From the IMG/VR virus record IMGVR_UViG_3300029248_000015: a stretch of 42,349 nucleotides of DNA; one strand, written 5' to 3'. The translations under genes were made by a program, and so were the position numbers. The notes under the pieces are model-generated. The model saw only the letters and a list, made by a program, of their open reading frames with translations. It was not told the DNA's origin and did not search any database. The stretch's first letter is position 1, and every line of letters starts with the position of its first letter. This document shows positions 2,397 through 39,026 of this stretch, in pieces. The stretch is from a virus.

Positions 2397-3248
2397 ATGG
2401 CACTCACTCGACCCGGCGCGGCTGCGCCCACTTTGTCCGTTCCCAACGCCCAGGCTGTGGCAAACCGTTCCTTGCAGAGCGCAAGCCGTGCAGGCAGCAC
2501 GGCCCTGCAGGCTGCGTCCCCGTCCGTGCCGGTGGAGATCACCGGTGCCGACGGTCAGCACTTCACCGTGAGCTTTGCAGATATCCGCAATTTCATTGAG
2601 CCGAAAGCCACCGACGCCGAATGCAAGATTTTTCTGGAGACCTGCAAGCAGTATCACCTGAACCCTTTCACGAAGGAAGCCTACCTCATCCACTACGATA
2701 ATAAAAACGAGAGTGCTGCTAGCACCATTGTGCTGGGCAAGAACTGCTATCTCCAGATGGCCGAGCGGCATCCGGCCTATGACGGTTTTGAAGCTGGCGT
2801 GATCGTGCTGACTGCTGACGGCCAGTTGCTCAACCGCGAGGGTTCCATTGTCTACGACGGAGACGGCGGCGAGACCCTTCTCGGCGGCTGGGCCAAGGTC
2901 TACCGCAAGGACCGCACCCGCGCCAGCTACGAGGAAGTCAAGCTCACCGAGTACGACACCGGCAAGTCTCTCTGGAACGGCAAGAAGGCTACCATGATCC
3001 GCAAGGTGGCGCTGGTGCACGCCCTGCGCGAGGCCTTCCCGTCTACCTTTGGTGCACTGTACGACGAAAGCGAGGTTTCCGTCCATGTGGATGCAGAAAG
3101 CACCGCCCGCGAAATCGACCCGGAAGACCTGCCCGTCCTGGACCCTTACGCAGGCACCAAGCGCCCCCGCAAGACGGCTGGCACCCTCCCCCCTGCGCCG
3201 GAGGAGCCTGCTGTTGAAGATGATCCGTTCCGGGGTGATGATGCATGA
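2397..3248 (+). CDS. recT: RecT-family single-strand annealing recombinase
   Basis: RBS GGAGG. Motifs ...CKIFLETCKQYHLNPFTKEAYLIHYD...GKNCYLQMAERHP...ATMIRKVALVHALREAFP are typical of phage RecT. Confidence 0.9.
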   Translation: MALTRPGAAAPTLSVPNAQAVANRSLQSASRAGSTALQAASPSVPVEITGADGQHFTVSFADIRNFIEPKATDAECKIFLETCKQYHLNPFTKEAYLIHYDNKNESAASTIVLGKNCYLQMAERHPAYDGFEAGVIVLTADGQLLNREGSIVYDGDGGETLLGGWAKVYRKDRTRASYEEVKLTEYDTGKSLWNGKKATMIRKVALVHALREAFPSTFGALYDESEVSVHVDAESTAREIDPEDLPVLDPYAGTKRPRKTAGTLPPAPEEPAVEDDPFRGDDA

Positions 3249-25992: not shown

Positions 25993-26535
25993 GTGGATTA
26001 CAAAGCGGCCGAAGCTGCTGCGGCAAAAAGCGGCTTTAACGATTTCCTTCTCCTTGTGGGCGGAAACACCATTTCTCTGCTACAGAAGTTCGGGCTACTC
26101 TTTGACAAGACCTATCCCCAGATCGGCAAGGCGGAAACGCTTTCGATGCTGGTCAATGTACCAGGAGCCGGTCGTCCGTTGGACCTCAGCCGGTCCATTG
26201 ACGGTAAGCTGCACTACAAAAGCCGCAAAATTACGGTCAAGTTTTCGTGCTTTCGCCCTCAATCGGAGTATGACGGCATTCAAAAAGGACTCGAAAAACT
26301 TTTGCAAGGCCAGTGGGTGTGGTTCAAATTCCGCGAGGATTCGTTTTTTTGGCGCGGGCACACAACGGTAAACTTTGAACGGAAGGCAAACAAAGCGGCG
26401 GTGACGATCACTGCAGTTTGCAACCCGTACAAGTACAACCTGACAGCTTATCTCGGCAACGACTGGCTGTGGGATACGTTTAACTTTGAGACAGACACGA
26501 TCTATACAGAGCGAACGGAGGTGAAACGTCTGTGA
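25993..26535 (+). CDS. Tail/baseplate protein, paralogue 2
   Basis: GTG after AAGGAGGG. Paralogous to 25533..25979, with a 30-aa C-terminal extension. Confidence 0.55.
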   Translation: MDYKAAEAAAAKSGFNDFLLLVGGNTISLLQKFGLLFDKTYPQIGKAETLSMLVNVPGAGRPLDLSRSIDGKLHYKSRKITVKFSCFRPQSEYDGIQKGLEKLLQGQWVWFKFREDSFFWRGHTTVNFERKANKAAVTITAVCNPYKYNLTAYLGNDWLWDTFNFETDTIYTERTEVKRL

Positions 26536-27689
26536 CAAAAACTTTTGCAGATATCATCGACGGCATCCGAAAAGCAGTCCTCGGCGTGGAAGTGCGCGAG
26601 GACATTGCGCAGGGCATGGAGTATGTGGAGCAGTTTGCCGCCACGGCCACCCAAAAAGCCGAAGAAGCTGCATCCAGCGCCGAAAAAGCAGCCCAGGCAA
26701 AGCAGGACACCGAAGCAGCCAAAGAGACGGCTGTGTCTGCAATCAATACTGCGAAATCCGAAGCGACGGACGAGATCAACACTGAAAAAAGCGGCGCGCT
26801 GACCGCGATTGACAAGGCAAAAGAAACAGGCCTGAACGCGCTGAATGAAAAGCAGCAGGCTGCTCTTGACTCAGTGGCCGAAGCTGTATCCACCGCCCAG
26901 TCTGCCGCCGGTACTGCAACTGAGCAGGCCACTGAAGCCGCAACGCAGGCCACCGCCGCCGCGTCCAGCGCGTCCGCAGCGAAGACCAGCGAAAGCAACG
27001 CGAAAGCGTCCGAAACGGAGTCCGCCAAAAACCTGCAAGGAACCAAAGAATATTTCGAGCAGGTACGCACCATCACCATTGGCGCACAGGGCTGGTACGC
27101 CACGCCGGAAGCCCTCAAAGCCGCTGTTCCGGTGGGCGAAAACGGCTGGTGGGCAGTGGTCGGCACGACCGACACCATCTGGACGTGGGACAGCGACACG
27201 GGCGCGTGGAAGGACAGCGTGCAAAAAGCTGATTTATCCGACTACTACACACGGGAACAAGTAAACAGGCTTCTTGAAGCGCAAAAGCTTGCAAATCATC
27301 CCGTGGGCAGCATCTACCAGAGCACTGATGCCGCCAGCCCCGCTGCCCTGTTTGGCGGCACATGGGAGCAGATCGCCCAGGACCGCGTGCTGATGGGTGC
27401 CAGCGACAGCCACCCGGCAGGCAGCACCGTCGAGGCTGGCCTGCCTAATATTACAGGCACAATGACGATTGATGGTGGTTCTGGTATTATGAAGAAAGCA
27501 GACCCACCAAAATATTCTGGGTGCTTTTTCCCGGGAACAGACGAGTATTCGTATTGTCCGGGTGGTGAAAGCTATAATCATGGTTACAATCTTGAATTTA
27601 GCGCTTCAAAAAGTAATAGTATCTATGGTGCGTCTACCACAGTACAACCAGCGGCATATTATGTCTATATATGGCGTCGTGTAAGCTAA
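26532..27689 (+). CDS. Tail fibre / receptor-binding protein (currently expressed C-terminal tip)
   Basis: GTG start. Ala/Glu/Thr-rich coiled-coil N-terminal half. C-terminal ...NHPVGSIYQSTDAASPAALFGGTWEQIAQDRVLMGA is typical of phage tail-fibre/collar tips. Contains the left inverted repeat. Confidence 0.8.
   Translation: MTKTFADIIDGIRKAVLGVEVREDIAQGMEYVEQFAATATQKAEEAASSAEKAAQAKQDTEAAKETAVSAINTAKSEATDEINTEKSGALTAIDKAKETGLNALNEKQQAALDSVAEAVSTAQSAAGTATEQATEAATQATAAASSASAAKTSESNAKASETESAKNLQGTKEYFEQVRTITIGAQGWYATPEALKAAVPVGENGWWAVVGTTDTIWTWDSDTGAWKDSVQKADLSDYYTREQVNRLLEAQKLANHPVGSIYQSTDAASPAALFGGTWEQIAQDRVLMGASDSHPAGSTVEAGLPNITGTMTIDGGSGIMKKADPPKYSGCFFPGTDEYSYCPGGESYNHGYNLEFSASKSNSIYGASTTVQPAAYYVYIWRRVS
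27410..27452 (+). repeat. Left 43-bp inverted repeat (inside the tail fibre CDS)
   Basis: CCACCCGGCAGGCAGCACCGTCGAGGCTGGCCTGCCTAATATT. Its exact reverse complement is at 27913-27955. Confidence 0.95.
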
Positions 27690-27690
27690 A

Positions 27691-27975
27691 TCAAGAAACT
27701 CTTTTCCAAATGTATACAAAATAGGCAGGAGGCTGAACGGTTGTAGCGTTACCATAGATGGAATTAGAACCAGATGCTTCAAATGACATATTTCCATATG
27801 TGGCTGGCATATTACCACCAGAGCGAAGATATGCACTACCTTTAACTGACACAGACACCCCTCCTGTACCCGTTGGGGATTCGCCGAAATAGTTGTCGTT
27901 TAGATTAAATACAATATTAGGCAGGCCAGCCTCGACGGTGCTGCCTGCCGGGTGGGTAGTTGTATCGCTATTTAA
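27691..27975 (-). other. Silent, start-less alternative tail-fibre C-terminal cassette (94 codons, convergent with the expressed tip)
   Basis: Minus-strand open frame LNSDTTTHPAGSTVEAGLPNIVFNLNDNYFGESPTGTGGVSVSVKGSAYLRSGGNMPATYGNMSFEASGSNSIYGNATTVQPPAYFVYIWKRVS*. It has no start codon or RBS. Its end is homologous to the expressed end SNSIYGASTTVQPAAYYVYIWRRVS*. Confidence 0.8.
27913..27955 (-). repeat. Right 43-bp inverted repeat
   Basis: AATATTAGGCAGGCCAGCCTCGACGGTGCTGCCTGCCGGGTGG is the exact reverse complement of 27410-27452. Confidence 0.95.
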
Positions 27976-27995: not shown

Positions 27996-28421
27996 ATGAA
28001 GATTATTGACGAAAACGGTTCAGTCGTTGAGAAACCCGACCTGACGGCGGGTTATCTTGCCGCCGACACCGAAGCGGTGGAGCACCCGGCCCAGGACGCC
28101 GTGGAGGAGCTGAGCCACTACGAGACGGTGGCAGAGTATCCCAACGGCGGCAAAGACGTGCGCAAGGTCATCGACCGTGCCGCCGTCCCGGCAGCGCCTG
28201 CGTGGACCGAGCAGGTGCCCATCCAGCGGTACATCCGCTACACGGCGGAGGAGCTGGCCCGGCGAGAAAAAGAGCAGCAGGAAGCCCGCCAGCAGCAGGA
28301 AGCACTGGACAAGCTGCCCCAGACGCTGGAAGCGCTGCAGGAAGATAACAAGACGCTGAAAAAAGAAAACGAGATGCTCAAGCAATGCTTGCTTGAAATG
28401 AGCGAGATTGTTTATGCATAA
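27996..28421 (+). CDS. Hypothetical protein with C-terminal coiled coil (tail-fibre/lysis junction)
   Basis: ATG at 27996 after GAAAGGAG. MKIIDENGSVVEKPDLTAGYL.... Confidence 0.6.
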   Translation: MKIIDENGSVVEKPDLTAGYLAADTEAVEHPAQDAVEELSHYETVAEYPNGGKDVRKVIDRAAVPAAPAWTEQVPIQRYIRYTAEELARREKEQQEARQQQEALDKLPQTLEALQEDNKTLKKENEMLKQCLLEMSEIVYA

Positions 28422-28609: not shown

Positions 28610-29392
28610 ATGAAAAAACTTTTGGAATTTCTGGTGGGGCTCGTGAAGGTGCTTTTCGGCGTGGACAGCGAAAGTCCTGAGCCGGAAACGCCCAGAGAGA
28701 CTCCCGTTGAGGAGACCGTCACCGGCTGGGAGGGCGACCCGCCATACCGGTACATCGACGTGAGCCGCTATCAGGGCGCGATCGACTGGGCGCAGGTGGC
28801 AGCGGCGGGCTACAAGGGAGCGATGCTCAAGACGGTGAGTACCAACCACAAGCTCTCCAAGCGGGCAGACGGTCTGTACATCGACCCAACCTTTGAGACC
28901 AACTACGCCGGGGCAAGGGCTGCCGGGCTGGACGTGGGCGTCTACTACTACACCTACGCCACCAGCGAAGCGATGGCCGATGCAGAGCTGGCCCTTGTGC
29001 GGCAGGCGGTGTACGGCAAGGAGCTGACCATGCCCCTTGCGGTGGACGTGGAGGAAAACAAACTCAAGCAAATGAGCACCCTCGACCTCACCAACCTCAC
29101 CGCCTACGCGCTGGAACAGGTGGAAAAAATGGGCTTTTACGCCCAACTGTACACCTACACCGGTTACAAGTACGAGCTGGACATGGCTCGGCTGTCCTCT
29201 CGGTGGGACGTCTGGCTGGCCGACTACACGGGCGAGACGCCCAACGTGACGTTTAGCTACAACGCTCACCAGCACACCAGCAAGGGCAGCGTGCCGGGTA
29301 TCACGGGCAACGTTGACCTCAACGTGACTACCATCAACTACCCGAAAATCATCCGCAAGAAGGGTCTGACCCGTCTCCGGGAGGGCGCATGA
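28610..29392 (+). CDS. Endolysin, glycoside hydrolase family 25 muramidase, with hydrophobic N-terminal segment
   Basis: ATG at 28610 after CAGGAGGAG. YIDVSRYQGAIDWAQVAAAGYKGAMLK...DPTFETNYAGARAAGLDVGVYYY is the GH25 signature. N-terminus is MKKLLEFLVGLVKVLFG. Confidence 0.85.
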   Translation: MKKLLEFLVGLVKVLFGVDSESPEPETPRETPVEETVTGWEGDPPYRYIDVSRYQGAIDWAQVAAAGYKGAMLKTVSTNHKLSKRADGLYIDPTFETNYAGARAAGLDVGVYYYTYATSEAMADAELALVRQAVYGKELTMPLAVDVEENKLKQMSTLDLTNLTAYALEQVEKMGFYAQLYTYTGYKYELDMARLSSRWDVWLADYTGETPNVTFSYNAHQHTSKGSVPGITGNVDLNVTTINYPKIIRKKGLTRLREGA

Positions 29393-29640
29393 GCGAGGCA
29401 ATCATCGTAGCGTTTATTACCGGTGTTCTGGGGCTTTTGGGTACCATCTACGCCAACAACAGGGCGGCAAAGGACATGGATGCCAAGCTGGAAAAACAGC
29501 AGGCTATCATGGACACAAAATTGGAAGAACTGACCCGGGAGGTGCGGATGCACAACAATTTTGCCCAGCGCATCCCGGTGATGGAAGAACAAATCAAGGT
29601 GGCAAACCACCGTATTTCTGACCTAGAGAAAGGAGCATAA
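29389..29640 (+). CDS. Lysis-associated membrane protein (N-terminal TM plus coiled coil; holin/XhlA-like)
   Basis: ATGA overlap. MSEAIIVAFITGVLGLLGTIY, then a coiled coil. Confidence 0.5.
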   Translation: MSEAIIVAFITGVLGLLGTIYANNRAAKDMDAKLEKQQAIMDTKLEELTREVRMHNNFAQRIPVMEEQIKVANHRISDLEKGA

Positions 29641-29643
29641 CAC

Positions 29644-29985
29644 ATGGAAACACTGGTATCTAAAGCTGTAAGCATTCTCCCTGCGTGGGCAGCGCTGCTG
29701 CTGATGCTGGGAGGCCTTATCTTCTACGCCCTCGGCTGCATCCGGCTGGGCTATGGTGCCGCGGTGAAGCCTCTGGTGCTTGACCTCATCGAGCGGGCCG
29801 AGCATGAAATTCAGGGTACGAAGCGCGGCGCAGAGCGCAAAGCGTGGGTGACAAAGACCCTGCGGGCCGCCCTCAGCGCCAGCAAGTGGGGCAAGCTTAT
29901 CAGCTGGGCCATCACCGATGAGACTATCGGCAAAGTTATCCAGTTTTTCTTTGACCGCGCAAAGGCAGCACTGCAAAAGCAGTAA
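29644..29985 (+). CDS. Holin (LL-H-family-like)
   Basis: RBS AAAGGAG. N-terminal TM ILPAWAALLLMLGGLIFYALG, then ...GTKRGAERKAWVTKTL... as in LL-H-type holins (recollection). Confidence 0.6.
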   Translation: METLVSKAVSILPAWAALLLMLGGLIFYALGCIRLGYGAAVKPLVLDLIERAEHEIQGTKRGAERKAWVTKTLRAALSASKWGKLISWAITDETIGKVIQFFFDRAKAALQKQ

Positions 29986-29995
29986 GGAGGCTATC

Positions 29996-30178
29996 ATGGC
30001 AAGCACTACATACGAGCAGAAACGATTTTGCGAAATTAAGAGATGCGGCGAAATTGACCATCTCGGTAACGTCCCCGTGATGGTGCGCAACGCCGGACAG
30101 CTGCCGCAGCCTTTCTGGCTCGGTGCTGCTCATGGCGGCGGCTCGTGTAGTGCTGCCCGCTGCGCTGCAAGGGCTTGA
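29996..30178 (+). CDS. Small ORF (60 aa), possibly the 5' part of a split gene
   Basis: Perfect RBS GTAAGGAGG, then 6 nt, then ATG. MASTTYEQKRFCEIKRCGEIDHLGNVPVMVRNAGQLPQPFWLG.... Confidence 0.5.
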   Translation: MASTTYEQKRFCEIKRCGEIDHLGNVPVMVRNAGQLPQPFWLGAAHGGGSCSAARCAARA

Positions 30179-30368
30179 CCGACAGCAAATGACCGCCGCC
30201 ATCAAAATCGCACCGCTTGGGAGGGTAGACCGTAAGATAGCCTTACTTCGGTACGTGGAGCGGCTTCCGCTGCCGGACATTGCAGCGCAGACACATTACA
30301 GCCGGACAGCGATAGGCTACCGGCTGAAAGTTATTGATGAAAAGCTAGACGAAAGGAGCTCACCGTGA
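30123..30368 (+). CDS. Sigma-70 region-4-like HTH protein (81 aa; weak start signals)
   Basis: ...RKIALLRYVERLPLPDIAAQTHYSRTAIGYRLKVIDEKL. GTG 30123 and ATG 30132 both lack an RBS. The frame is open upstream to 30081, overlapping the previous ORF. Confidence 0.5.
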   Translation: MLLMAAARVVLPAALQGLDRQQMTAAIKIAPLGRVDRKIALLRYVERLPLPDIAAQTHYSRTAIGYRLKVIDEKLDERSSP

Positions 30369-30508
30369 ACCTCGAAAATGTTCCGACCGCAAATCTTATT
30401 ACAGAGCTTCGCAAACGCGAGGGCGTGGAAACGACCATTGTCGAGCCATATCAGGACGCAGAGGTCAGCGTCAACGGCCCTGCGCTGGTTCTTGTCGTGA
30501 CGGATTGA
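30365..30508 (+). CDS. BC1881-family-like small protein (47 aa)
   Basis: GTGA overlap. VNLENVPTANLITELRKREGVETTIVEPYQDAEVSVNGPALVLVVTD matches my recollection of the BC1881 family pattern. Below the ORF-track cutoff. Confidence 0.6.
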   Translation: MNLENVPTANLITELRKREGVETTIVEPYQDAEVSVNGPALVLVVTD

Positions 30509-30520
30509 TTGTGGTATAAT
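30492..30520 (+). promoter_or_regulatory. Sigma-70 promoter with extended -10 (TTGTCG-17-TGgTATAAT)
   Basis: cTTGTCGtgacggattgattgTGgTATAAT, overlapping the end of the preceding CDS. Confidence 0.55.
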
Positions 30521-30526
30521 AACATC

Positions 30527-30678
30527 AACAAATCCACCCGGCCTCTCGAAGAAGCACATTAGGGTGGATATCTGAACCCGTCAAGCCTCTCGACGATGCG
30601 TATCATGGCGGGTCTTTTTAGTTGATACAGTCTCCCGCCCGCCTACTTTCAGTGCGTACCATGCGGGAGACGATTTTA
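30527..30678 (+). ncRNA. Candidate structured RNA/leader: three related hairpins with ~22-28-nt loops
   Basis: ATCCACCC..GGGTGGAT (30532-30569). ACCCG..CGGGT followed by a T-run (30576-30619). GTCTCCCGC..GCGGGAGAC (30630-30671). The loops share CCTCTCGA and GCGTAYCATG-like words. Confidence 0.3.
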
Positions 30679-30686
30679 TATGAATT

Positions 30687-30854
30687 ATGGTAAATAAAAT
30701 ATATCACTTTTTGTCCCGTGTTTTGTTCGCTCTGATTATTTTTGGGGCGACATCAAGCGTTCTAAAAACCGTCCTTCCATTTTGGCATAGTGCATTTATA
30801 GGCGTGGTTTTGTCGGTATATGCGTCTTTGCATTATACGCCATACGATTTATGA
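30687..30854 (+). CDS. Possible 55-aa two-TM hydrophobic peptide in a low-GC island (uncertain)
   Basis: MVNKIYHFLSRVLFALIIFGATSSVLKTVLPFWHSAFIGVVLSVYASLHYTPYDL. No Shine-Dalgarno site. Below the ORF-track cutoff. Confidence 0.3.
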   Translation: MVNKIYHFLSRVLFALIIFGATSSVLKTVLPFWHSAFIGVVLSVYASLHYTPYDL

Positions 30855-31000
30855 TTTGAAAGGCTACGGCCTTTGTAGAGAGCAGCATTGCCTGTGGGCG
30901 GTTCCGCTCTTGATTTTAGACTTTGCCGTTTTGGCAGCATAAAACTCCCGGTGGTCCGTTTGGAGCATCGGGAGTATTTTTGTTTATATACAATTTTTCA

Positions 31001-31042
31001 AGCGCTCATGCGGATTTTTCCGTGTGGGCGCTTTTCTTTTTT
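31001..31042 (+). terminator. Intrinsic terminator
   Basis: 13-bp stem AGCGCTCATGCGG / CCGTGTGGGCGCT (with G-U pairs), loop attttt, then TTTCTTTTTT. Confidence 0.6.
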
Positions 31043-31120
31043 GTCCTTCGTTTGGCGTTCGTTGTCTCTCCCGGCGGTTTAAAAAAGTACACTGGGCGCA
31101 AAGGGAGGGGATGAGCGCCC

Positions 31121-31498
31121 ATGTGGCACAAGTATAACCCGAACCCTCACGGGAGCAGCGTCGGAGACTGTGCCGTGCGTGCAGTATCTGCAGCCACTGG
31201 GCAGAGCTGGGAGCAGGCCTACATTGGATTGGCGCTGACCGGCTTTGCTCTCGGCGATATGCCCAGCGCCAACCGCACATGGGGCGCATACCTCCAAAAG
31301 CACGGATTCAAGCGCCGCCTTGTCGAAGCGGACTGCACCACCTGTTACACGGTGGCAGATTTTGCCCGGGAGTACCCAAACGGCGTGTATGTACTGGGCT
31401 GCTCCGGCCACGTTCTGGCCGTCATCGATGGCAAGTGGTGGGACAGCTGGGACAGTGGCGCGGAATGCCCGATCTATTACTGGTATAAGGAGGACTAA
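31121..31498 (+). CDS. Cargo protein 1: possible papain-like (Cys-His) fold protein
   Basis: RBS AAGGGAGGGG. ...SSVGDCAVRAVSAATGQSW...GCSGHVLAVIDGKWWDSWDSG places Cys, His and Asp in papain-like order (inference). Confidence 0.45.
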   Translation: MWHKYNPNPHGSSVGDCAVRAVSAATGQSWEQAYIGLALTGFALGDMPSANRTWGAYLQKHGFKRRLVEADCTTCYTVADFAREYPNGVYVLGCSGHVLAVIDGKWWDSWDSGAECPIYYWYKED

Positions 31499-31501
31499 AC
31501 G

Positions 31502-31951
31502 ATGCCGTACAATCCATATGGCTACCAAATGCCAAACTACTACGGACAGCCTATGCCTGACCAGCTCACGCAGCTGCGGCAGAACGCCGGGTATCAGCCG
31601 CCCATGATGAGCCAACCGACAGGGCAAAGCTCCCCATCTACGCCTCCGATCATCTGGGTGCAGGGCGAAGAAGGCGCAAAAGCCTATATGGTCGCCGCAG
31701 GCAACAGCGTGTTGCTGATGGACAGCGAAAACAGCGCTTTTTACATCAAGAGCACCGACGCCAGCGGGATGCCGCTGCCTCTCCGCGTCTTTGACTACAA
31801 AGAACGCACCACGGCGACAAAAATGCCCCCTCAGACGGCGCAGCATCCCGGCGGGGAGTTTGTCACACGGGCAGAGTTTGACGCGCTGGCGGCCCGCTGC
31901 GCAGCGCTGGAAAAACAAGAGCCCGCAAAGCCTGAAACGGAGGTCAAGTAA
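31502..31951 (+). CDS. Cargo protein 2: P/Q/Y/M-rich N-terminus plus conserved IWVQGEEGAKAY...FYIKSTDASGMP domain, unknown function
   Basis: RBS AAGGAGGA. 149 aa. Confidence 0.6.
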   Translation: MPYNPYGYQMPNYYGQPMPDQLTQLRQNAGYQPPMMSQPTGQSSPSTPPIIWVQGEEGAKAYMVAAGNSVLLMDSENSAFYIKSTDASGMPLPLRVFDYKERTTATKMPPQTAQHPGGEFVTRAEFDALAARCAALEKQEPAKPETEVK

Positions 31952-31953
31952 TT

Positions 31954-32181
31954 ATGGCAAATCCTCTTTTTAATGCACTGGGCGGTGGAATGCCTGCCAT
32001 GATGGGCGGACCTATGGGGCAGTTCGGGCAGATGATGCAGCAGTTCCAGCAGTTCCGTGCAAACTTTCAAGGCGACCCGAAAGCAGAGGTGCAAAAGCTG
32101 CTGCAATCCGGCAAAATGTCACAAAACCAGCTGAACCAGCTGCAGGCGATGGCGCAGCAGTTTCAGCAGTTCCTTCATTAA
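31954..32181 (+). CDS. Cargo protein 3: small Gln/Met-rich protein
   Basis: RBS GAGGT. MANPLFNALGGGMPAMMGGPMGQFGQMMQQFQQFRANFQGDPKAEVQKLLQSGKMSQNQLNQLQAMAQQFQQFLH. Confidence 0.6.
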   Translation: MANPLFNALGGGMPAMMGGPMGQFGQMMQQFQQFRANFQGDPKAEVQKLLQSGKMSQNQLNQLQAMAQQFQQFLH

Positions 32182-32244
32182 GTCGTAACCGTGGCCACGG
32201 TTCAAGCATAAAAATCATTCAAAACACACGAAAGGAGTACAAAA

Positions 32245-33027
32245 ATGTCTCTTTCTTCCGATTCTGCGGTTCTGACCATGCCTGTTCAGCCCGCAAACAC
32301 CAACGGCGGCAACGGCTTTGGCTTTGGCAATGATGGCGCATGGTGGATCATCATCCTGTTCCTGTTCGCCTTCTGCGGCGGCTGGGGCGGCAACTGGGGC
32401 AACAACGGCAACGCAGCCACCGGTGCAGGTGTTGTGGACGGCTACGTCCTGACCTCCGATTTTGCGAACATCGAGCGCAAGATGGACAGCATCAACAGCG
32501 GCCTGTGTGACGGCTTCTACCAGCAAGCGCAGCTTGTCAATGGTGTGCAGCAGACCGTGAACAATGGCTTCATGTCTGCCGAGATCAGCCGCGCAAACCA
32601 GCAGGCTGCTTTCATGCAGCAGCTCTTTGCCATGCAGATGCAGCAGCAGGAGTGCTGCTGCGAGAACCGCTCTGCAATTCAGGGCGTCAACTACAATCTG
32701 GCTACCCAGTCCTGCGAGACCCGGAACACGGTGCAGAACACCACCCGGGACATCATCGACAACCAGAACCAGAACGCCCGCGCCATCCTTGACGCTCTGA
32801 CCGCGCAGCGCATCGAGGCAAAGGACGCAAAGATCGCTGAGCAGGGTCAGCAGCTGTTCGCAGCACAGCTTGCGGCATCTCAGGCAGCCCAGAACGAAAC
32901 GCTCAAGGCCTACATGAGCGGTCAGCTGGCCTACTACAATCCTCGCCCTGTGCCTGCTTTCCCGGTTCCTGCACCCTACCAGTACGGCAACTGCGGCACC
33001 GGATGCGGCTGCAACGGTTGCGGTTAA
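32245..33027 (+). CDS. Cargo protein 4: G/N-rich N-terminus with one TM, Q-rich core with CCC motif, Cys/Gly-rich C-terminus
   Basis: RBS AAAGGAG. ...NGGNGFGFGNDGAWWIIILFLFAFCGGWGGNWGNNGNA...QQQECCCENR...YQYGNCGTGCGCNGCG. Confidence 0.65.
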   Translation: MSLSSDSAVLTMPVQPANTNGGNGFGFGNDGAWWIIILFLFAFCGGWGGNWGNNGNAATGAGVVDGYVLTSDFANIERKMDSINSGLCDGFYQQAQLVNGVQQTVNNGFMSAEISRANQQAAFMQQLFAMQMQQQECCCENRSAIQGVNYNLATQSCETRNTVQNTTRDIIDNQNQNARAILDALTAQRIEAKDAKIAEQGQQLFAAQLAASQAAQNETLKAYMSGQLAYYNPRPVPAFPVPAPYQYGNCGTGCGCNGCG

Positions 33028-33098
33028 CCGAATAACGGCAACTGACTGCAAATTGTATGTAGTCTGTTCAGCCCCTGAGCTGATTTTGCAAACCAGAG

Positions 33099-33126
33099 CG
33101 CCGGGGCAGCAGTCCCGGCGTTTTTA
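33099..33126 (+). terminator. Intrinsic terminator inside the cargo cassette
   Basis: CGCCGGG-gcagcagt-CCCGGCG followed by TTTTT. Confidence 0.6.
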
Positions 33127-33146
33127 TTATGAAAGGAGCCGATAAA

Positions 33147-33569
33147 ATGGCTGAATTTAGCAACTCTAACACCGTCAGCGTGGCAGCGGGTGAAAACCTT
33201 CCCCTGACAGAGACCGCGGTGAAAGCGCCTGCCTGCATCGTGCACCGTGAGGGCAGCGGCCTTGTGACTCTGCGAGGCCTGACCAATCAGTGCAAAGCAC
33301 GCTTCAAGGTAAGCTTTGGCGGCAATATCGCCATTCCCACCGGCGGCACTGTGGGACCCATTTCCGTGGCGCTGGCTGTCGGTGGTGAGTCTCTGACCAG
33401 TGCGACCGCCATTGTCACCCCGGCGGCAGTCGAAAATTACTTCAACGTTTTCGTGGCCGCTTTCATCGAGGTGCCGCGCGGCTGCTGCGTGACCGTGGCG
33501 GTTAAAAACACCAGTACGCAGGCAGTCAGCATTGCAAACAGCAATCTGATCGTTGAGCGGGTAGCATAA
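33147..33569 (+). CDS. Cargo protein 5: beta-rich protein, possibly BclA C-terminal-domain (C1q/TNF-like) fold
   Basis: ATG at 33147 after AAAGGAG. Alternating beta-strand pattern, and the ending ...AVSIANSNLIVERVA resembles the BclA ending ...SASIIIEKVA (recollection; weak). Confidence 0.45.
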   Translation: MAEFSNSNTVSVAAGENLPLTETAVKAPACIVHREGSGLVTLRGLTNQCKARFKVSFGGNIAIPTGGTVGPISVALAVGGESLTSATAIVTPAAVENYFNVFVAAFIEVPRGCCVTVAVKNTSTQAVSIANSNLIVERVA

Positions 33570-33585
33570 GAAAGGAGATAAAATC

Positions 33586-33987
33586 ATGCTGGATAAACTG
33601 AATCACCTGAAGGATGAGATGTGCGACGAGCTCATGGAGCTGACCGACAAAAAGAACCGATCTCCGGGTGATGTTGAGATGATCGGCGAGATCGTGGACA
33701 TCATTCTGGACATCCACCGCATCGAGGATTACTGCGAGGGCGGCGAGTACAGCCGTACAGGCGAGTGGGAAGCTGACATGCGCGGATCCTTCAGCCGCGA
33801 TGCCGGGAACGGTTACAACCGGGGCAACAGCTACGCCAACCGTGGCCGTCACTATGTGCGCGGGCACTACTCCCGCACGGATGGCCGTGAGCGCATGATC
33901 TCTGACATCGAGGACATGATGCAGGAGGCCACCGGCGCAGAGCGCGATGCATACAAGCGGGCCGCTGACATCTTGCGCAACGCATAA
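33586..33987 (+). CDS. Cargo protein 6: hypothetical (133 aa), helical ends with a G/R/Y/N-rich centre
   Basis: RBS AAAGGAG. Confidence 0.6.
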   Translation: MLDKLNHLKDEMCDELMELTDKKNRSPGDVEMIGEIVDIILDIHRIEDYCEGGEYSRTGEWEADMRGSFSRDAGNGYNRGNSYANRGRHYVRGHYSRTDGRERMISDIEDMMQEATGAERDAYKRAADILRNA

Positions 33988-34004
33988 GAAAGGGGGCGGC
34001 AGGT

Positions 34005-34331
34005 ATGGATATTGACGAGATCAATGAGCACATCCGCAAGCTCAAGTGCGAGGAAACCAGCTGGCAGAGCGTCAACAAGCTTGCCGCCCTCTGCACCGTG
34101 CGGGACGAGCTGGAAGAAAAACAGGATTCCGCACCCCAGGTGGAGAACGCGCAGGAGCCGAAGCTCCAGGCATACTCTACATCCGGGCCGCCTCAAAGTG
34201 AGTTTGTGGAAGCTGCAAGCGCCGCCCCTTTTGGAGCGCTGATGGATATTCTGGACGAGCATATGAGCGCCATTAAGCTTGTGTATCCCAAGGAATATGA
34301 GCTTGTGATGCGAAAAATAAGGACAATTTGA
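34005..34331 (+). CDS. Cargo protein 7: hypothetical (108 aa)
   Basis: RBS AAAGGGGG. Confidence 0.55.
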   Translation: MDIDEINEHIRKLKCEETSWQSVNKLAALCTVRDELEEKQDSAPQVENAQEPKLQAYSTSGPPQSEFVEAASAAPFGALMDILDEHMSAIKLVYPKEYELVMRKIRTI

Positions 34332-34451
34332 TTGCATCATTGCAATATTTTTGCAAATGTGATAGACTAACCAAAACTCAAGTTCAAACTTCATAAGCTA
34401 ACAATAAGCAAACAAATCTAATTATTATAACGATACGTCGCAAAATAAATT

Positions 34452-34499
34452 TGATTTGTAATCAGTAGGTTACGGGTTCGACTCCTGCCACCAGCTCCA
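34452..34499 (+). other. 3' fragment of a tRNA-Thr(UGU)-like gene; probable attP core
   Basis: TGA-TTTGTAA-TCAGT-AGGTT-ACGGG-TTCGACT-CCTGC-CACCAGC-T-CCA gives the anticodon loop, variable loop, T-arm, 3' acceptor strand and CCA. No D-arm or 5' acceptor strand lies upstream. It sits between the cargo cassette and int. Confidence 0.65.
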
Positions 34500-34507
34500 A
34501 AAATAAA

Positions 34508-34549
34508 CGCACAGACGACAAAAATAAATCGTCTGTGCGCTTTTCTTTT
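34508..34549. terminator. Strong bidirectional-looking intrinsic terminator
   Basis: 11-bp perfect stem CGCACAGACGA / TCGTCTGTGCG, loop caaaaataaa. An A-run lies upstream and TTTTCTTTT downstream. Confidence 0.7.
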
Positions 34550-34609
34550 GCCTGAAATTCCCTGAAATCTTCTGAATGATTATCATAATCTAACAAACAA
34601 TCTAACAAA

Positions 34610-35743
34610 TCAGTACTTCATTTTCTGCATTTCATGCAACAAATAGGCCGGGTCGTTGTGAGAAACGTATTTGTTGGCGGTGGTAGAAAAATTTTTGTGT
34701 CCGAGTATAGCTTGCACCGCGGTTTTTTCCAGACCGCACTCCACCATCTTGCTGCTGGCCGTGTGGCGCAGCGTGTGCGGGTGTACTCCCTCTATATGGC
34801 ACTCCTGCATCAACGCTCGGAATTTTGTAGCCACATTGCGCTTGTCCAGCTTTGTGCCGGCTTTTGACGGTATCAGCCATTCACAGCCGCTGTCCATCAT
34901 CCAAAATGCGATGATTTTGTAAATCGGGTCCAGGATGGGAATAATGCGGTTTTTGCCTGCCTCCGTCTTTTCGCCGCCCTGCATATACCGCTCTTTCAGG
35001 TGCACATCTTCACAGCGCATGGAAAGCAGCTCGTCAATGCGCATACCGGTATAAAGCAGCACCATTGCGATTTGCGCCGTCTGCCCAAACTTCGGGTCAT
35101 TCTGTCGGCTGCTGATCTGCTCGATTTCTTGGGCGGTCAGGGTGCGCTCTGCTTTTCCTGTAGCCGCCGGGAGCTGCAGCAGCATGGCATAATTTTTGTT
35201 TATGATGTCCTGCGCCATAGCCCACTCGCAGATCTGGCTGAAAAGCGTGCGCTGCTTTTCGCAGGAGCTGCGGGAGAGCCCCTTTTCCACCATTGCGTCA
35301 ATGACCTGTTGATAATCTGCCGCTTTCAAGTCCCGCAATTGTCGGTCGTATAGCGGCGAAGCCTTTGCATAGGCCAGCTCGTACCCCTTTTGCATGTCCG
35401 TGCTGAGCTTTTCAAACTTTGGCTGCGCTCTCCATTGGGCATAGGCATCCGCAAAGGTGCATTTTAGACGCGCTGCGGGGGTGTTCTGGGCGTTGTAAGC
35501 GTCCAGCGCTTGTACTGCTTCGCCTGCCGTTTCAAACGTGCCCAGAACATCCCTGCGGGCTGTGAGTGCAACATACGGTCTTGCCCGCTCCCCGCTCAGT
35601 TTATACACGCTGCCGCTACCCTTTGGACGGCGGCGTTTTTTTCTTTGCTGCGGGGCGGCTTCCGGCTGTTTCTTCCCGCACCACGGACAAAAAGAAGCAC
35701 CATCCGGGATTTCCTTCCGGCAGCATGGTCTCACGCATTTCAT
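34610..35743 (-). CDS. int: Tyrosine integrase (phage integrase family) with N-terminal zinc-ribbon
   Basis: MKCVRPCCRKEIPDGASFCPWCGKK. C-terminal catalytic region ...HPHTLRHTASSKMVECGLEKTAVQAILGHKNFSTTANKYVSH carries the R..H-x-x-R..Y signature. Confidence 0.9.
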   Translation of the reverse strand: MKCVRPCCRKEIPDGASFCPWCGKKQPEAAPQQRKKRRRPKGSGSVYKLSGERARPYVALTARRDVLGTFETAGEAVQALDAYNAQNTPAARLKCTFADAYAQWRAQPKFEKLSTDMQKGYELAYAKASPLYDRQLRDLKAADYQQVIDAMVEKGLSRSSCEKQRTLFSQICEWAMAQDIINKNYAMLLQLPAATGKAERTLTAQEIEQISSRQNDPKFGQTAQIAMVLLYTGMRIDELLSMRCEDVHLKERYMQGGEKTEAGKNRIIPILDPIYKIIAFWMMDSGCEWLIPSKAGTKLDKRNVATKFRALMQECHIEGVHPHTLRHTASSKMVECGLEKTAVQAILGHKNFSTTANKYVSHNDPAYLLHEMQKMKY

Positions 35744-35746
35744 GGC

Positions 35747-36334
35747 TTACTCCTTTTTCTGCCCGATATATCCGAATGCACCATTTTCAGCAGCGGCCCT
35801 TCCGGCCTTGTAGTTGATTTTCAGGTCGTTAATGGGAGGATGCGGAGCGTCCGGGCATGGGTCAAGGCCAGCAATCTGCGCATAGGTATACTGGTCTATG
35901 ATGGTCCCGCACACGCTGACCCGGTTGTTGAGTGGGCAGTGCAGGTTTGCTGCCATCTCGGAGATCACCGCAGGCGGACTGCTGCCGTGTCGGCCCTTCA
36001 GAATGAAAAGCAGCAGTCGCTTCGTGATGGGCGGCAGAGCCCTCATCAGCAGATGCAGCTCCCGATCTACAGAATCTTCCAGCCTTTCGATGTCGGAAAC
36101 CGCATACAGATCTGGGTGCATCATCTCCATGAACACCGTGATGGGAGACACCCCGCACGCAGCGCACCAGTCCATGATCTCGTCACTGTCCGGGCTGGTG
36201 CAGCCTTTTTCCCAGCTCTGCACGGTGCGCTCTCCTTTTTCGATGCGCCTTGCGATCTCCACTTGACTCAGGCCAGCAGACACCCGTGCTTTTGCAAGCG
36301 CTTTCCCGATTTGGCTCGCCGTAAAATAACTCAT
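35747..36334 (-). CDS. XRE-family HTH protein with unknown C-terminal domain (co-oriented with int)
   Basis: ATG at 36334 after GGGGGCGAAAG. ...ARVSAGLSQVEIARRIEKGERTVQSWEKG. Ends 3 nt before the int start. Confidence 0.75.
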   Translation of the reverse strand: MSYFTASQIGKALAKARVSAGLSQVEIARRIEKGERTVQSWEKGCTSPDSDEIMDWCAACGVSPITVFMEMMHPDLYAVSDIERLEDSVDRELHLLMRALPPITKRLLLFILKGRHGSSPPAVISEMAANLHCPLNNRVSVCGTIIDQYTYAQIAGLDPCPDAPHPPINDLKINYKAGRAAAENGAFGYIGQKKE

Positions 36335-36372
36335 ACTTTCGCCCCCGTAAAACCAACGTGTTTTTAACAGAA

Positions 36373-36399
36373 AATGGCGCAGAAAAAATCTGCGCCATT
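36373..36399. promoter_or_regulatory. Perfect 11-bp palindrome AATGGCGCAGA-aaaaa-TCTGCGCCATT in a divergent intergenic region (operator candidate)
   Basis: Seen directly. Lies between the XRE gene (-) and small + strand ORFs. Confidence 0.5.
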
Positions 36400-36492
36400 C
36401 GACAAAAAATATCCGTATTTTGTTTTCCAACGGCGCATGGTAGAATTTGGAACATAAGACATAAATATGCACAAAAGAAAGGGGAAAACAAA

Positions 36493-36603
36493 ATGGATTT
36501 TGAGCAGAGAAACAGTAAAGAAGTTGAAACGACCATCATCGACGGAATGCCCGCCAGCATCCTGACCGGCACCGAACGCACCCCTGCACCCTGGGAGGAA
36601 TGA
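36493..36603 (+). CDS. Small ORF (36 aa)
   Basis: ATG after AAAGGGGAAAACAAA. MDFEQRNSKEVETTIIDGMPASILTGTERTPAPWEE. The upstream part of the track ORF has no support. Confidence 0.4.
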   Translation: MDFEQRNSKEVETTIIDGMPASILTGTERTPAPWEE

Positions 36604-36606
36604 GTT

Positions 36607-36819
36607 ATGAAAAAGCTGTCACACTTTCGCACCCATGCCCGTGCCCTGCTGGCCTGCTATTTGGATATGACCCCGGAGCAGCAGCGCCTTGCTCGCGCTT
36701 ACATTCAAGATAAGGCCCTGCCGGAGGTGCAAGCCCTGCGTAACGCAGCCGGTACGCCCGGCGGGGCGCTGGCCGCTGACTTGCTGCAAAATTTGCAGCA
36801 GCCTTGCAACCGCGAATAG
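36607..36819 (+). CDS. Hypothetical protein (70 aa)
   Basis: RBS GGGAGGA. MKKLSHFRTHARALLACYLDMTPEQQRLARAYIQDKALPEV.... Confidence 0.5.
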   Translation: MKKLSHFRTHARALLACYLDMTPEQQRLARAYIQDKALPEVQALRNAAGTPGGALAADLLQNLQQPCNRE

Positions 36820-36832
36820 CAACGTGCATATT

Positions 36833-36970: not shown

Positions 36971-36986
36971 ATGGTTGTAAACAGAT

Positions 36987-39010: not shown

Positions 39011-39026
39011 AAAAAATTCCTCCGAT

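What the first reader, a model, noticed from the sequence alone, without database searches (positions are those of the whole stretch)
27410..27975. Miniature invertible tail-fibre tip: perfect 43-bp inverted repeats bracket two convergent alternative C-terminal cassettes
**Inverted repeat.** The 43 nt at 27410-27452 (CCACCCGGCAGGCAGCACCGTCGAGGCTGGCCTGCCTAATATT) lie inside tail-fibre CDS 26532..27689 and encode HPAGSTVEAGLPNI. They recur as an exact reverse complement at 27913-27955, downstream of the gene.

**Silent cassette.** Reading the minus strand from 27975 gives an open frame with no start codon and no RBS:
LNSDTTTHPAGSTVEAGLPNI-VFNLNDNYFGESPTGTGGVSVSVKGSAYLRSGGNMPATYGNMSF-EASGSNSIYGNATTVQPPAYFVYIWKRVS*
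Its stop is at 27693-27691, one nucleotide from the expressed gene's stop (27687-27689).

**Expressed tip.** HPAGSTVEAGLPNI-TGTMTIDGGSGIMKKADPPKYSGCFFPGTDEYSYCPGGESYNHGYNLEF-SASKSNSIYGASTTVQPAAYYVYIWRRVS*

**Comparison.** Both cassettes share the repeat-encoded entry and a conserved final ~29 aa. That final segment is conserved at protein level but diverged at DNA level. They differ in a 44-49 aa central segment.

**Interpretation.** Inverting 27453-27912 would swap the tips exactly in frame. This is the logic of the Mu G / P1 C host-range switches, but reduced to about 0.46 kb (tip only). No Gin/Cin/Hin-type invertase gene is adjacent, or anywhere in the window.
Basis: partly seen in the sequence, partly recalled or inferred. 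Interest (0 to 1): 0.9.

Follow-up and report, generated by a model that had tools for sequence, protein, structure and literature searches.

The report
Invertible tail-fibre tip without invertase
A gut (Faecalibacterium) phage carries a 0.46-kb DNA segment that can flip to give its tail fibre one of two receptor-binding tips; the same module sits in unrelated phages in both orientations, yet none of them encodes a dedicated flipping enzyme next to it.

Summary
A perfect 43-bp inverted repeat (27410-27452 / 27913-27955) brackets two convergent C-terminal cassettes of tail-fibre gene 26532..27689, and their stop codons lie 1 nt apart.

- The same architecture occurs in at least 9 other contigs, on unrelated phage backbones.
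- Two phages about 97.5% identical over about 8 kb differ by a clean inversion of the 548-bp IR-to-IR block.
- A tip-B-like cassette is the expressed tip in a gut-metagenome contig.
- Cassettes in the silent position stay open and evolve at dN/dS 0.08-0.3 up to dS of about 2.
- A low-GC relative carries a nested three-cassette version.

The window is a complete circular 42.3-kb temperate phage. It has no serine invertase and no second tyrosine recombinase, only a tRNA-targeting integrase and a RecT/SSB/RusA recombination module.

The IR arms evolve in concert. IR sequence and position differ between lineages, and no recombinase travels with the module. I therefore favour homology-driven inversion (about 0.5) over a host invertase acting in trans (about 0.3). 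The enzyme step is inferred, not shown.

This is a new variant of a known kind (Mu G / P1 C / Rin).

The parts
26532..27689 (+). Tail-fibre / receptor-binding protein gene (385 aa). It has an Ala-rich coiled N-terminal part, a conserved shaft, and a gp10-like C-terminal domain starting near HPVGSIYQS.
   Evidence: ORF. Pfam Gp10_C, E = 1.1e-9. More than 6500 relatives share the conserved ...AGLPNITG / variable / F.AS.SN.IYG.S.TVQP.AYYV.IW.RV layout. A profile search hits T5 pb1 (8hqz) and T4 gp10 (2fkk). The best PDB fold match of the AF2 model is T4 gp10.
27410..27452 (+). IR-L, the left recombination arm, inside the CDS. It encodes HPAGSTVEAGLPNI.
   Evidence: Homologous arms of 36-44 bp are found in L004, L005, L034, L046 and L087.
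27453..27689 (+). Cassette A, the tip currently expressed (78 aa plus stop). It has low G+C.
   Evidence: The same cassette is expressed in contig 056142 (L002/L004) and, about 90% identical, in L116.
27690..27690 (.). Single nucleotide between the two convergent stop codons. It is the centre of the invertible segment.
   Evidence: The gap between the stops is 1 nt in every module examined: window, L004, L005, L034, L046, L003, and L110, L111 and L116.
27691..27912 (-). Cassette B, the silent alternative tip (73 aa plus stop). It has no start codon or RBS of its own.
   Evidence: A B-like cassette is expressed in L003. B is silent in L004, L110, L111 and L116. dN/dS is 0.15-0.21 against the expressed L003 copy. 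Window 27640-27912 reads almost the same as the low-GC phage L110, and a six-frame segment spanning 27609-27899 is 94% identical at protein level.
27913..27955 (-). IR-R, the right recombination arm, an exact reverse complement of IR-L.
27956..27975 (-). Decayed outer continuation of the duplicated coding sequence. It reads LNSDTTT on the minus strand, compared with GASDS in the gene.
   Evidence: Arm alignment. Residual AGCGA(C/T)A similarity lies just outside the perfect repeat.
27996..28421 (+). Conserved downstream gene (141 aa, coiled-coil C-terminus) that borders the module. It is not specific to the module.
   Evidence: It is 91-99% identical in the six other module-bearing loci where it aligns full-length (L001, L004, L034, L046, L084, L086, L087). 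It is 60-70% identical in single-cassette relatives, where it follows the fibre stop by about 20 nt.
2397..3248 (+). RecT-family single-strand annealing recombinase. It is the candidate catalyst for homology-driven inversion. This is an inference, not shown.
   Evidence: Pfam RecT, E = 1.7e-34. It is flanked by DUF1351 (1449-2378) and an SSB-like gene (3245-3775, weak Pfam match at 23 bits, below the cut-off of 26). RusA lies at 6992-7507.
34610..35743 (-). The only site-specific recombinase in the genome, a tyrosine integrase. It is an unlikely invertase.
   Evidence: Pfam Phage_integrase, E = 2.1e-31. An attP-like tRNA 3' end beside it has no similarity to the IR. It has no homologue in the other module-bearing loci held, except a 27%-identical integrase in L003.

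Best explanation
This is a functional two-cassette host-range (receptor-binding tip) switch at the 3' end of the tail-fibre gene of a temperate Faecalibacterium siphophage.

**How it works.** Reciprocal recombination between the two 43-bp arms flips the 460-bp segment 27453-27912. The constant part of the fibre (residues 1-307, ending ...HPAGSTVEAGLPNI) is then joined in frame to cassette B instead of cassette A. Only the cassette joined to the gene is translated. The switch changes a roughly 45-aa hypervariable insert in a gp10-like C-terminal domain and keeps the conserved last ~30 aa.

**Mobility.** The module (IR, tip, 1 nt, reversed tip, IR) is a portable unit. It has been inserted between the fibre stop codon and the next gene, and it is shared by unrelated phage backbones.

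**Enzyme.** The module carries no invertase of its own. The flipping step is most likely homology-dependent recombination between the identical arms, by the phage RecT/SSB/RusA module during replication and/or by host recombination. I put this at about 0.5, with a host-supplied site-specific invertase as the main alternative.

**Shown:** the anatomy, natural inversion of the module, selection on silent cassettes, and absence of a linked invertase.

**Inferred:** the catalyst, the switching rate, and that the two tips bind different receptors.
For: **Natural inversion.**
- The C/D cassette pair occurs in both orientations.
- Inner segments are 96% identical when flipped and 57% when not.
- L085 and L084 are colinear at 97.5% identity except for the 548-bp IR-to-IR block, which is inverted at 97.4% identity.
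- A B-like tip is expressed in L003.

**Conserved design.**
- Stops are 1 nt apart and IRs sit at the same motif in the window, L004, L005, L034, L046, L087 and L116.
- L112-L114 carry three cassettes with nested IRs. The inner IR is 43 nt with 462 nt between arms, the same geometry as here. This gives three tips through two inversions.

**Selection on silent copies.**
- There are no stops or frameshifts in any silent copy.
- For copies in the silent position, D(L034) against D'(L087) gives dS of about 2 and dN/dS 0.09. L087 against L112 gives 0.25.
- One residue, GG[N/K/T/D/S]MPA, is a replacement hot spot.

**No linked invertase.**
- The window is circular and complete. It holds only Int, RecT and RusA.
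- The module also sits in Rep3/ParA plasmid-like phages (L116) and in a 63-kb low-GC phage (L110). No recombinase lies within 8-10 kb in either.
- The only sequences shared with the low-GC phage loci (L110, L112, L113) are the fibre C-terminus, the cassettes and part of the downstream gene.

**Homology-driven step.**
- The arms are identical within each locus but differ between loci at four or more positions: GAG/AAG, GCT/GCC, GGCCTG/GGGTTG.
- The inner IR boundary moves from 36 to 42-44 bp as the head of cassette C is converted to that of D.
- IR sequence differs at nearly every synonymous site between the GC-rich and low-GC lineages. The nested shufflon uses two unrelated repeats.
- Perfect-identity lengths of 36-44 bp lie just above the published minimal pairing lengths, 31-34 bp for RecA and 23-27 bp for Red-beta. 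Rad52-like phage recombinases invert DNA between inverted repeats on lambda in a recA host (PMC3945230).
- Programmed inversions without any known site-specific recombinase are documented (PMC6620402).
Against: - No within-population evidence exists. All three contigs with the A/B pair (window, 056142, L116) have A expressed. The inverted protein form of this phage is absent from the protein database. The junction search of IMG/VR found nothing.
- L003 shows that a module can be locked by deletion of the silent cassette. Switching is therefore dispensable in some lineages.
- The outer IR of the low-GC relatives has only 19 perfect bp. This is below published minimal pairing lengths and fits a site-specific enzyme better.
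- The window IR contains an internal dyad, GGCAGGC-16-GCCTGCC, seen by eye. It could be a recombinase core site.
- Mu's gix-bearing repeats are also perfect (my own knowledge), so perfect arms alone do not prove homology-driven exchange.
- Receptor specificity of the tips is untested.
Confidence: 0.75

Rival explanations
1. The switch is the same, but the flip is catalysed by a site-specific invertase supplied in trans by the Faecalibacterium host or by another resident element. The 43-bp arms would contain its core site.
For: - Global invertases acting in trans are known. Mpi is cited in PMC6109161, where the authors proposed exactly this for a recombinase-less ~500-bp inversion in bifidophages.
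- The IR has an internal dyad, GGCAGGC-16-GCCTGCC.
- The outer boundary of the IR is identical in all GC-rich loci.
- The outer IR of the low-GC relatives has only 19 perfect bp.
- There is no invertase in the phage.
Against: - Conservative site-specific exchange does not homogenise arms, yet the arms co-vary at four or more positions and the IR boundary shifts.
- The homologous IR of the low-GC lineage differs at almost every synonymous site and lacks the dyad. The nested module uses two unrelated repeats.
- No Faecalibacterium inverton or invertase literature was found in the held library.
- No host genome was available to test.
Confidence: 0.3
2. The phage's own tyrosine integrase (34610-35743) doubles as the invertase.
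For: It is the only site-specific recombinase in the complete genome.
Against: - Its probable attP is the 3' end of a tRNA gene beside it, which has no similarity to the IR.
- The same A/B module lies in phages whose held sequence (about 23 kb of contig 056142 and 20 kb of L116) has no integrase but has Rep3/ParA.
- L003's integrase is only 27% identical.
Confidence: 0.05
3. This is an evolutionary relic. The reversed cassette is debris from tip replacement between phages. Inversions are rare accidents with no programmed role, and the silent copy is simply young.
For: - The segment has foreign (low) G+C, and window 27640-27912 reads almost the same as the corresponding stretch of a low-GC phage.
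- L003 has lost its silent cassette by deletion.
- All A/B contigs are in one orientation.
Against: - Silent cassettes remain intact with dN/dS 0.08-0.3 out to dS of about 2.
- The 1-nt stop spacing and the IR geometry are conserved across lineages that differ at most synonymous sites.
- A three-cassette nested version exists.
- Both orientations occur in 97.5%-identical phages.
- The arms are kept identical by conversion.
Confidence: 0.1
4. The silent cassette is a donor for non-reciprocal gene conversion, in the style of pilS/vls, rather than a partner in reciprocal inversion.
For: Conversion between the arms evidently occurs.
Against: In L085 against L084 the whole IR-to-IR block is reciprocally inverted, and both cassettes are retained and swapped.
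Confidence: 0.03

Closest known systems
Mu G segment / Gin, P1 C segment / Cin, e14 P / Pin, p15B Min (serine-invertase host-range switches)
   Same: A constant N-terminal fibre part is fused by inversion to alternative C-terminal parts. One arm of the inverted repeat lies inside the fibre gene, and only the joined cassette is expressed.
   Different: - Here the segment is 0.46 kb and carries only the last ~75 aa, with no separate assembly/chaperone gene. The G segment is about 3 kb (my own knowledge).
- No serine invertase is present in the whole genome.
- The host is a Gram-positive-type gut anaerobe.
- The fibre domain is gp10-like rather than Mu S/P1 S-like.
Bifidobacterium prophage Rin shufflon, and the second recombinase-less ~500-bp inversion in tRNA-Met bifidophages (Mavrich et al. 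2018, PMC6109161)
   Same: These are gut temperate siphophages in which variable RBP C-termini are swapped by inversion. The second system is about 500 bp, involves the 3' end of a gene plus a small reversed gene, and has no flanking recombinase.
   Different: - Rin has an adjacent armless tyrosine invertase and 11-bp asymmetric rix sites.
- The recombinase-less bifidophage case has an 8-bp repeat and genes of unknown function.
- Here the repeats are 36-44 bp, perfect, coding and concertedly evolving, and the protein family is different.
Gene-altering programmed inversions / intragenic invertons (Milman et al. 2023, PMC9881135; Chanin et al., bioRxiv 10.1101/2023.03.11.532203)
   Same: An inverted-repeat pair with one arm inside a CDS recodes the C-terminus. 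Tail-fibre genes are an enriched class.
   Different: Recombinase families (Mpi, Tsr0667, site-specific integrase) are among those enriched near the predicted programmed inversions in that survey. This module was not found described in the held literature.
Streptococcus pneumoniae spnIII hsdS inversions (De Ste Croix et al. 2019, PMC6620402)
   Same: Programmed in-frame cassette swapping at inverted repeats continues without any known site-specific recombinase.
   Different: It is a chromosomal restriction-modification specificity gene with repeats of 15, 85 and 333 bp. It was shown to be RecA-independent, and its locus does encode a recombinase (CreX) that contributes.

Membership tests
Serine-invertase tail-fibre switches (Gin/Cin/Pin/Min) | Invertible segment bounded by inverted repeats, with one arm inside the fibre gene, giving alternative in-frame C-termini | tested here: met
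Serine-invertase tail-fibre switches (Gin/Cin/Pin/Min) | Cognate resolvase/invertase-family serine recombinase gene adjacent to the segment | tested here: not met
   There is no Resolvase or Recombinase Pfam hit in the ORFs scanned. These were 40 selected ORFs and all stop-to-stop frames of at least 85 aa in 1-9968 and 29317-42349, apart from a dozen already scanned individually. None was found in the flanks of five other module-bearing contigs.
Serine-invertase tail-fibre switches (Gin/Cin/Pin/Min) | 26-bp gix/hix-type crossover sites and a Fis-bound enhancer | not tested
   No formal consensus scan was run. By eye the IR (CCACCCGGCAGGCAGCACCGTCGAGGCTGGCCTGCCTAATATT) bears no resemblance to the gix sequence as I recall it.
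Tyrosine-recombinase shufflons (R64 Rci, bifidophage Rin) | Adjacent dedicated tyrosine invertase, lacking an arm-binding domain in Rin | tested here: not met
   The only tyrosine recombinase is the integrase, 6.6 kb away, next to an attP-like tRNA fragment. It is absent from the other module-bearing loci.
Tyrosine-recombinase shufflons (R64 Rci, bifidophage Rin) | Several cassettes separated by short (11-19 bp) asymmetric repeats in both orientations | tested here: not met
   The window has two cassettes and one 43-bp perfect pair. Relatives L112-L114 have three cassettes, but with 43-nt and 22-nt repeats of unrelated sequence.
Gene-altering programmed inversion / intragenic inverton | IR pair with one arm in a CDS, and both orientations observed in natural sequences | tested here: met
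   for the C/D pair. for the B-like tip expressed in L003.
Gene-altering programmed inversion / intragenic inverton | Both orientations co-existing in reads from one clonal population | not testable with these tools
   No read data are available. The only hints are contigs L044 and L030, which end inside IR-L and IR-R.
Diversity-generating retroelement (considered as an alternative source of tip variation) | Reverse transcriptase plus a direct template/variable repeat pair | tested here: not met
   There is no RT family hit in the Pfam scans. The repeat is inverted, 43 bp and perfect.
Pfam PF21939 Gp10_C (T4 gp10 C-terminal domain-like fibres) | Profile match above the gathering score | tested here: met
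   39.8 bits against a cut-off of 27. The match is partial, covering profile positions 6-57 of 139. Supporting hits are a profile match to gp10 2fkk and T5 pb1 8hqz and a Foldseek top hit to the gp10 trimer at probability 0.96 but low TM-score.

The most novel reading that the evidence does not exclude
This would be a programmed phage host-range switch that needs no dedicated invertase. A portable roughly 0.55-kb 'plug-in' module would be flipped by general or phage-encoded homologous recombination (RecT-type annealing or host recombination). The recombination would act on coding inverted repeats that gene conversion keeps just above the minimal pairing length. Because it needs no cognate enzyme, the module can spread by recombination into any phage with a gp10-like fibre end: integrase phages, plasmid-like phages and low-GC phages. 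It can also be stacked into nested shufflons.
Probability: 0.4. Interest if true: 0.8.

Novelty: new variant of a known kind. Interest (0 to 1): 0.66.

Why it matters
**Host and field.** Faecalibacterium is a keystone gut commensal, and how its phages set host range is essentially uncharted.

**What a confirmed switch would mean.** Single phage genotypes would hedge between receptor variants. That affects how virome 'strains', host-range predictions and phage-host co-existence are interpreted.

**Mechanism.** The classical switches (Gin, Cin, Min, Rin) all come with their own invertase. A module that flips without one, and that has moved between unrelated backbones, would show that programmed inversion can be built from nothing more than two short identical coding repeats. 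It would also give an engineerable minimal tip-swap cassette.

**Testability.** The question of recombinase-independent programmed inversions, left open for pneumococcal spnIII, becomes directly testable in a 0.55-kb unit.

Tried and rejected
- **Exact-IR search of 185,579 species genomes.** No hit. The module was seen only in viral and metagenome contigs.
- **Junction-specific search of IMG/VR for the B-expressed state.** None found.
- **Chimeric 'inverted' protein query.** The best hit was the A form at 75%, so no flipped copy of this exact phage is on record.
- **Third protein search, meant to find samples holding both the C- and D-expressed fibres.** It did not retrieve those proteins at all; the top hit was 75%. 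The within-sample test was therefore impossible.
- **Downstream 141-aa gene as a module-specific factor.** Rejected, because it is present next to single-cassette fibres too.
- **Integrase attP similarity to the IR.** None.
- **DGR.** No reverse transcriptase.
- **Sequence search of the PDB with the tip domain alone.** Nothing significant. Only the profile and fold searches gave gp10/pb1.
- **Short 'tip-only' ORFs in L117 and L118.** These turned out to be same-strand tandem paralogues, not reversed silent cassettes. Not every short homologue marks a switch.
- **Literature search for Faecalibacterium invertons or invertases.** Nothing relevant.
Full report
**1.
The window contains a perfect 43-bp inverted repeat, 27410-27452 and 27913-27955, with 460 bp between the arms. 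Each half of the repeat occurs only at these two places even with 3 mismatches allowed, and none of 100 shuffles gave a match.

The left arm lies in frame in ORF 26532..27689 (385 aa) and encodes HPAGSTVEAGLPNI. The minus strand from 27975 reads LNSDTTT-HPAGSTVEAGLPNI-VFNLNDNYFG...VQPPAYFVYIWKRVS*, with no start codon.

The two stop codons are 1 nt apart, at 27687-27689 and 27691-27693. The last 30 residues of the two cassettes share 23 amino acids but only 58% of nucleotides, and the longest identical run is 9 nt.

The segment between the arms has G+C 0.42, against 0.55-0.62 around it.

**2. Context.**
The window is a complete, circularly permuted temperate siphophage. Its ends overlap by 25 nt inside a 27-nt tandem-repeat gene.

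The gene order is:
- DUF1351, RecT, a weak SSB-like gene, DnaB_2, RusA, methylase;
- terminase, SPP1-type portal, Mu-F-like protein, scaffold;
- tape measure, Prophage_tail, two small ORFs, the fibre, a 141-aa gene, a GH25 lysin;
- tyrosine integrase with an HTH repressor, and two antirepressor-type genes, one in the lysogeny region and one inside the structural block.

The likely host is Faecalibacterium. Ten of the 22 related loci found in species genomes, including most of the closest ones, are Faecalibacterium MAGs. There is also distant DNA similarity to Faecalibacterium phage FP_oengus.

The fibre belongs to a family of more than 6500 proteins. Their layout is a conserved shaft, then ...H.AG.TV.AGLPNITG, then a hypervariable stretch of about 45 aa, then a conserved F.AS.SN.IYG.S.TVQP.AYYV.IW.RV end.

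The C-terminal domain is gp10-like:
- Pfam Gp10_C;
- profile hits to T5 pb1 and T4 gp10;
- an AF2 model with pLDDT 77 whose best PDB fold match is the T4 gp10 trimer.

The repeat therefore sits exactly at the border between the constant part and the variable tip.

**3. The module is real, conserved and has inverted in nature.**
A search for the predicted 'flipped' junction (left flank + 43 N + start of cassette B) hit one human-gut contig, L003. There a B-like cassette is the expressed tip.

Scanning 80 related viral loci for reverse-strand copies of the tip motifs found the same convergent architecture in L004, L005, L030, L034 and L046. L087 was found through the IR itself. Perfect IRs measure 36 bp in L005, 42 bp in L034 and 44 bp in L046, and 43 bp in L087. 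L030's contig ends inside its right arm. The stops are always 1 nt apart.

At least six tip types occur in such modules, labelled A to F.

The decisive comparison is this. L005/L085 carries D forward and C reverse, while L034 and L046/L084 carry C forward and D reverse. The inner segments are 96% identical only after reverse complementation.

L085 and L084 are 97.6% identical over 7.7 kb upstream. They are 97.4% identical over the 548-bp IR-to-IR block in reverse orientation, and 97.5% identical downstream. That is a clean in-situ inversion between near-identical phages.

**4. Silent cassettes are maintained by selection.**
No silent copy has a stop codon or a frameshift. Nei-Gojobori comparisons give:

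| Comparison | State of the two copies | dN/dS |
|---|---|---|
| D(L034) vs D'(L087), dS about 2 | both silent | 0.09 |
| L087 vs L112 | both silent | 0.25 |
| B(window) vs B'(L003) | silent vs expressed | 0.15 |

Close pairs differ mainly by replacements in the variable insert. One position reads N, K, T, D or S in five copies (GG?MPA; window codon 27811-27813 on the minus strand).

A never-expressed copy would not behave this way. One lineage (L003) has lost its silent cassette. The loss was a deletion between a CACCGTC in the IR and the same heptamer near the cassette's end, leaving HPAGSTVQPAAYYVYIWRRIS* and a 22-bp IR. The switch can therefore be locked.

**5. The module is mobile and older than this phage.**
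- Single-cassette relatives have the downstream gene about 20 nt after the fibre stop. The module is an insertion of the reversed cassette plus IR-R at that point.
- The A/B pair also occurs on contig 056142 and on L116, whose structural genes differ. L116 has Rep3 and ParA genes about 5 kb from the module. The pooled scan that included 056142 also returned Rep3 and ParA hits, but it does not assign them to a locus.
- Window 27640-27912 reads almost the same as the corresponding stretch of a 63.6-kb low-GC phage (L110). There a 570-aa gp10-like fibre is convergent with a B cassette, and the stops are again 1 nt apart. This explains the low G+C of the segment.
- In that lineage the IR lies 30 nt further upstream, at NRVLMG, and is a different sequence with 19 perfect bp.
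- L112-L114 carry three cassettes. The inner IR pair is 43 nt (28 perfect) with 462 nt between the arms, the same geometry as the window. The outer pair is 22 nt. Two successive inversions can therefore bring any of three tips into the gene.

**6. Who does the flipping?**
A Pfam census found no serine recombinase, no second tyrosine recombinase, no transposase and no reverse transcriptase. It covered 40 selected ORFs and, in 1-9968 and 29317-42349, all stop-to-stop frames of at least 85 aa apart from a dozen already scanned individually.

The integrase sits beside a tRNA 3'-end fragment, its probable attP, which is unrelated to the IR. It has no counterpart in the other module-bearing loci apart from a 27%-identical one in L003. 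No recombinase lies within 8-10 kb of the module in L110, L112 or L116. With the low-GC phage loci (L110, L112, L113) the window shares nothing but the fibre end, the cassettes and part of the downstream gene. The module therefore does not travel with an enzyme.

Several features point to homologous rather than conservative site-specific exchange:
- (a) The two arms are identical within each locus but differ between loci at four or more positions, including synonymous ones: GAG/AAG, GCT/GCC, GGCCTG/GGGTTG. This requires gene conversion between arms.
- (b) The inner IR boundary moves. C's head is CAACATC in L005 (IR 36 bp) but has been converted to D's GAATAT in L034 and L046 (IR 42-44 bp).
- (c) The IRs of the two lineages, and the two IRs of the nested module, share no core sequence.
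- (d) The 36-44 perfect bp lie just above published minimal pairing lengths, 31-34 bp for RecA and 23-27 bp for Red-beta. Rad52-like phage recombinases invert a segment between inverted repeats on lambda in a recA host (PMC3945230).
- (e) The phage encodes RecT, a weak SSB-like gene and RusA.
- (f) Precedent exists for programmed inversion without any known site-specific recombinase (PMC6620402).

Against this view:
- the 19-bp outer IR of the low-GC relatives;
- an internal dyad in the window's IR;
- the known existence of trans-acting master invertases, which Mavrich et al. invoked for a similar recombinase-less ~500-bp inversion in bifidophages (PMC6109161).

My estimates are: homology-driven about 0.5, host invertase in trans about 0.3, the phage integrase about 0.05, and no programmed function about 0.1.

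**7. Comparison with known systems, and novelty.**
The logic is that of Mu G/Gin, P1 C/Cin, p15B Min and bifidophage Rin. Membership of the serine-invertase and tyrosine-shufflon families fails on the defining feature of a linked invertase. The locus does fit the broad class of gene-altering programmed inversions / intragenic invertons, in which tail fibres are enriched (PMC9881135).

I found no description of this module, or of Faecalibacterium phage invertons, in the held literature.

I rate it a new variant of a known kind. It is a miniature tip-only switch that is horizontally mobile, apparently lacks an invertase, and has nested multi-cassette relatives.

**8. Limits.**
No reads were available, so switching within one population of this phage is not shown. 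All three A/B contigs are in the A state. Two related contigs break exactly inside IR-L (L044) and IR-R (L030). This would fit mixed orientations in those samples, but it could equally be an assembler effect. Receptor specificity of the tips and the catalyst are inferences.

Noticed in passing
window 41599-42349 joined to 1-285: The window ends overlap by 25 nt inside a gene with many 27-nt tandem repeats encoding (A)GSSG(R/D)(Y/A)ST. This implies a circular, complete 42.3-kb genome. The repeat array may be collapsed or expanded by assembly.
   Followed up: partly
window ~34455-34500: A fragment resembling the 3' end of a tRNA gene (T-arm GGTTCGACTCC plus acceptor ...CACCAGCTCCA) lies about 110-155 nt downstream of the integrase gene's stop codon. 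It is the probable attP core. ARAGORN does not call it.
   Followed up: partly
window 9303-9378 and 16481-16557: There are two phage-borne tRNA genes, Trp-CCA and Thr-TGT. The second sits inside the structural module.
   Followed up: no
window 14797-15543: A Bro-N/ANT antirepressor-type gene is inserted in the head-morphogenesis block, between the Mu-F-like gene and the scaffold gene. A second AntA/ANT antirepressor lies at 39236-40228.
   Followed up: no
window 27811-27813 (minus strand; residue N in GGNMPA of cassette B): This single codon reads N, K, T, D or S in five otherwise near-identical copies of cassette B: window, L004, L116, L110 and L003. It looks like a receptor-contact hot spot under diversifying selection.
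   Followed up: partly
L112 9985-10909 (also L113, L114): This is a three-cassette nested shufflon in a low-GC phage. It has an expressed tip, a second silent cassette in the same orientation, and a third reversed cassette. The inner IR is 43 nt and the outer IR is 22 nt, and their sequences are unrelated.
   Followed up: yes
L003 8214-8290 (minus-strand gene; ENA UONX01000260): This is a locked derivative. The silent cassette is reduced to HPAGSTVQPAAYYVYIWRRIS* by a deletion between two CACCGTC heptamers. The remnant is GC-rich and matches the end of the GC-rich cassette F of L030.
   Followed up: yes
L044 (end of contig) and L030 (end of contig): Two IMG/VR contigs terminate inside the inverted repeat, 8 nt into IR-L and 15 nt into IR-R respectively. 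Seven more loci end within the conserved shaft just upstream and two end shortly after the AGLPNI motif. Contig breaks therefore cluster at the constant/variable border of this fibre.
   Followed up: partly
L116 2445-4807: The A/B module also lives in an element with Rep3 initiator and ParA genes and no integrase in 20 kb, so it is probably a phage-plasmid. The pooled scan that included contig 056142 (L001) also returned Rep3 and ParA hits, but which locus they came from was not resolved.
   Followed up: partly
L117 8609-10609; L118 8001-8809: Other phages carry two or three short gp10-like tip genes in tandem on the same strand, not reversed. This is a different way of holding several tips, or several separate small receptor-binding proteins.
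   Followed up: partly
L110/L112 heads of the reversed cassette: The two unrelated repeats of the low-GC lineage share an 8-mer in opposite orientation, TTTTGATG ... CATCAAAA, 13 nt apart. This may be chance in AT-rich DNA or a small protein-binding palindrome.
   Followed up: no
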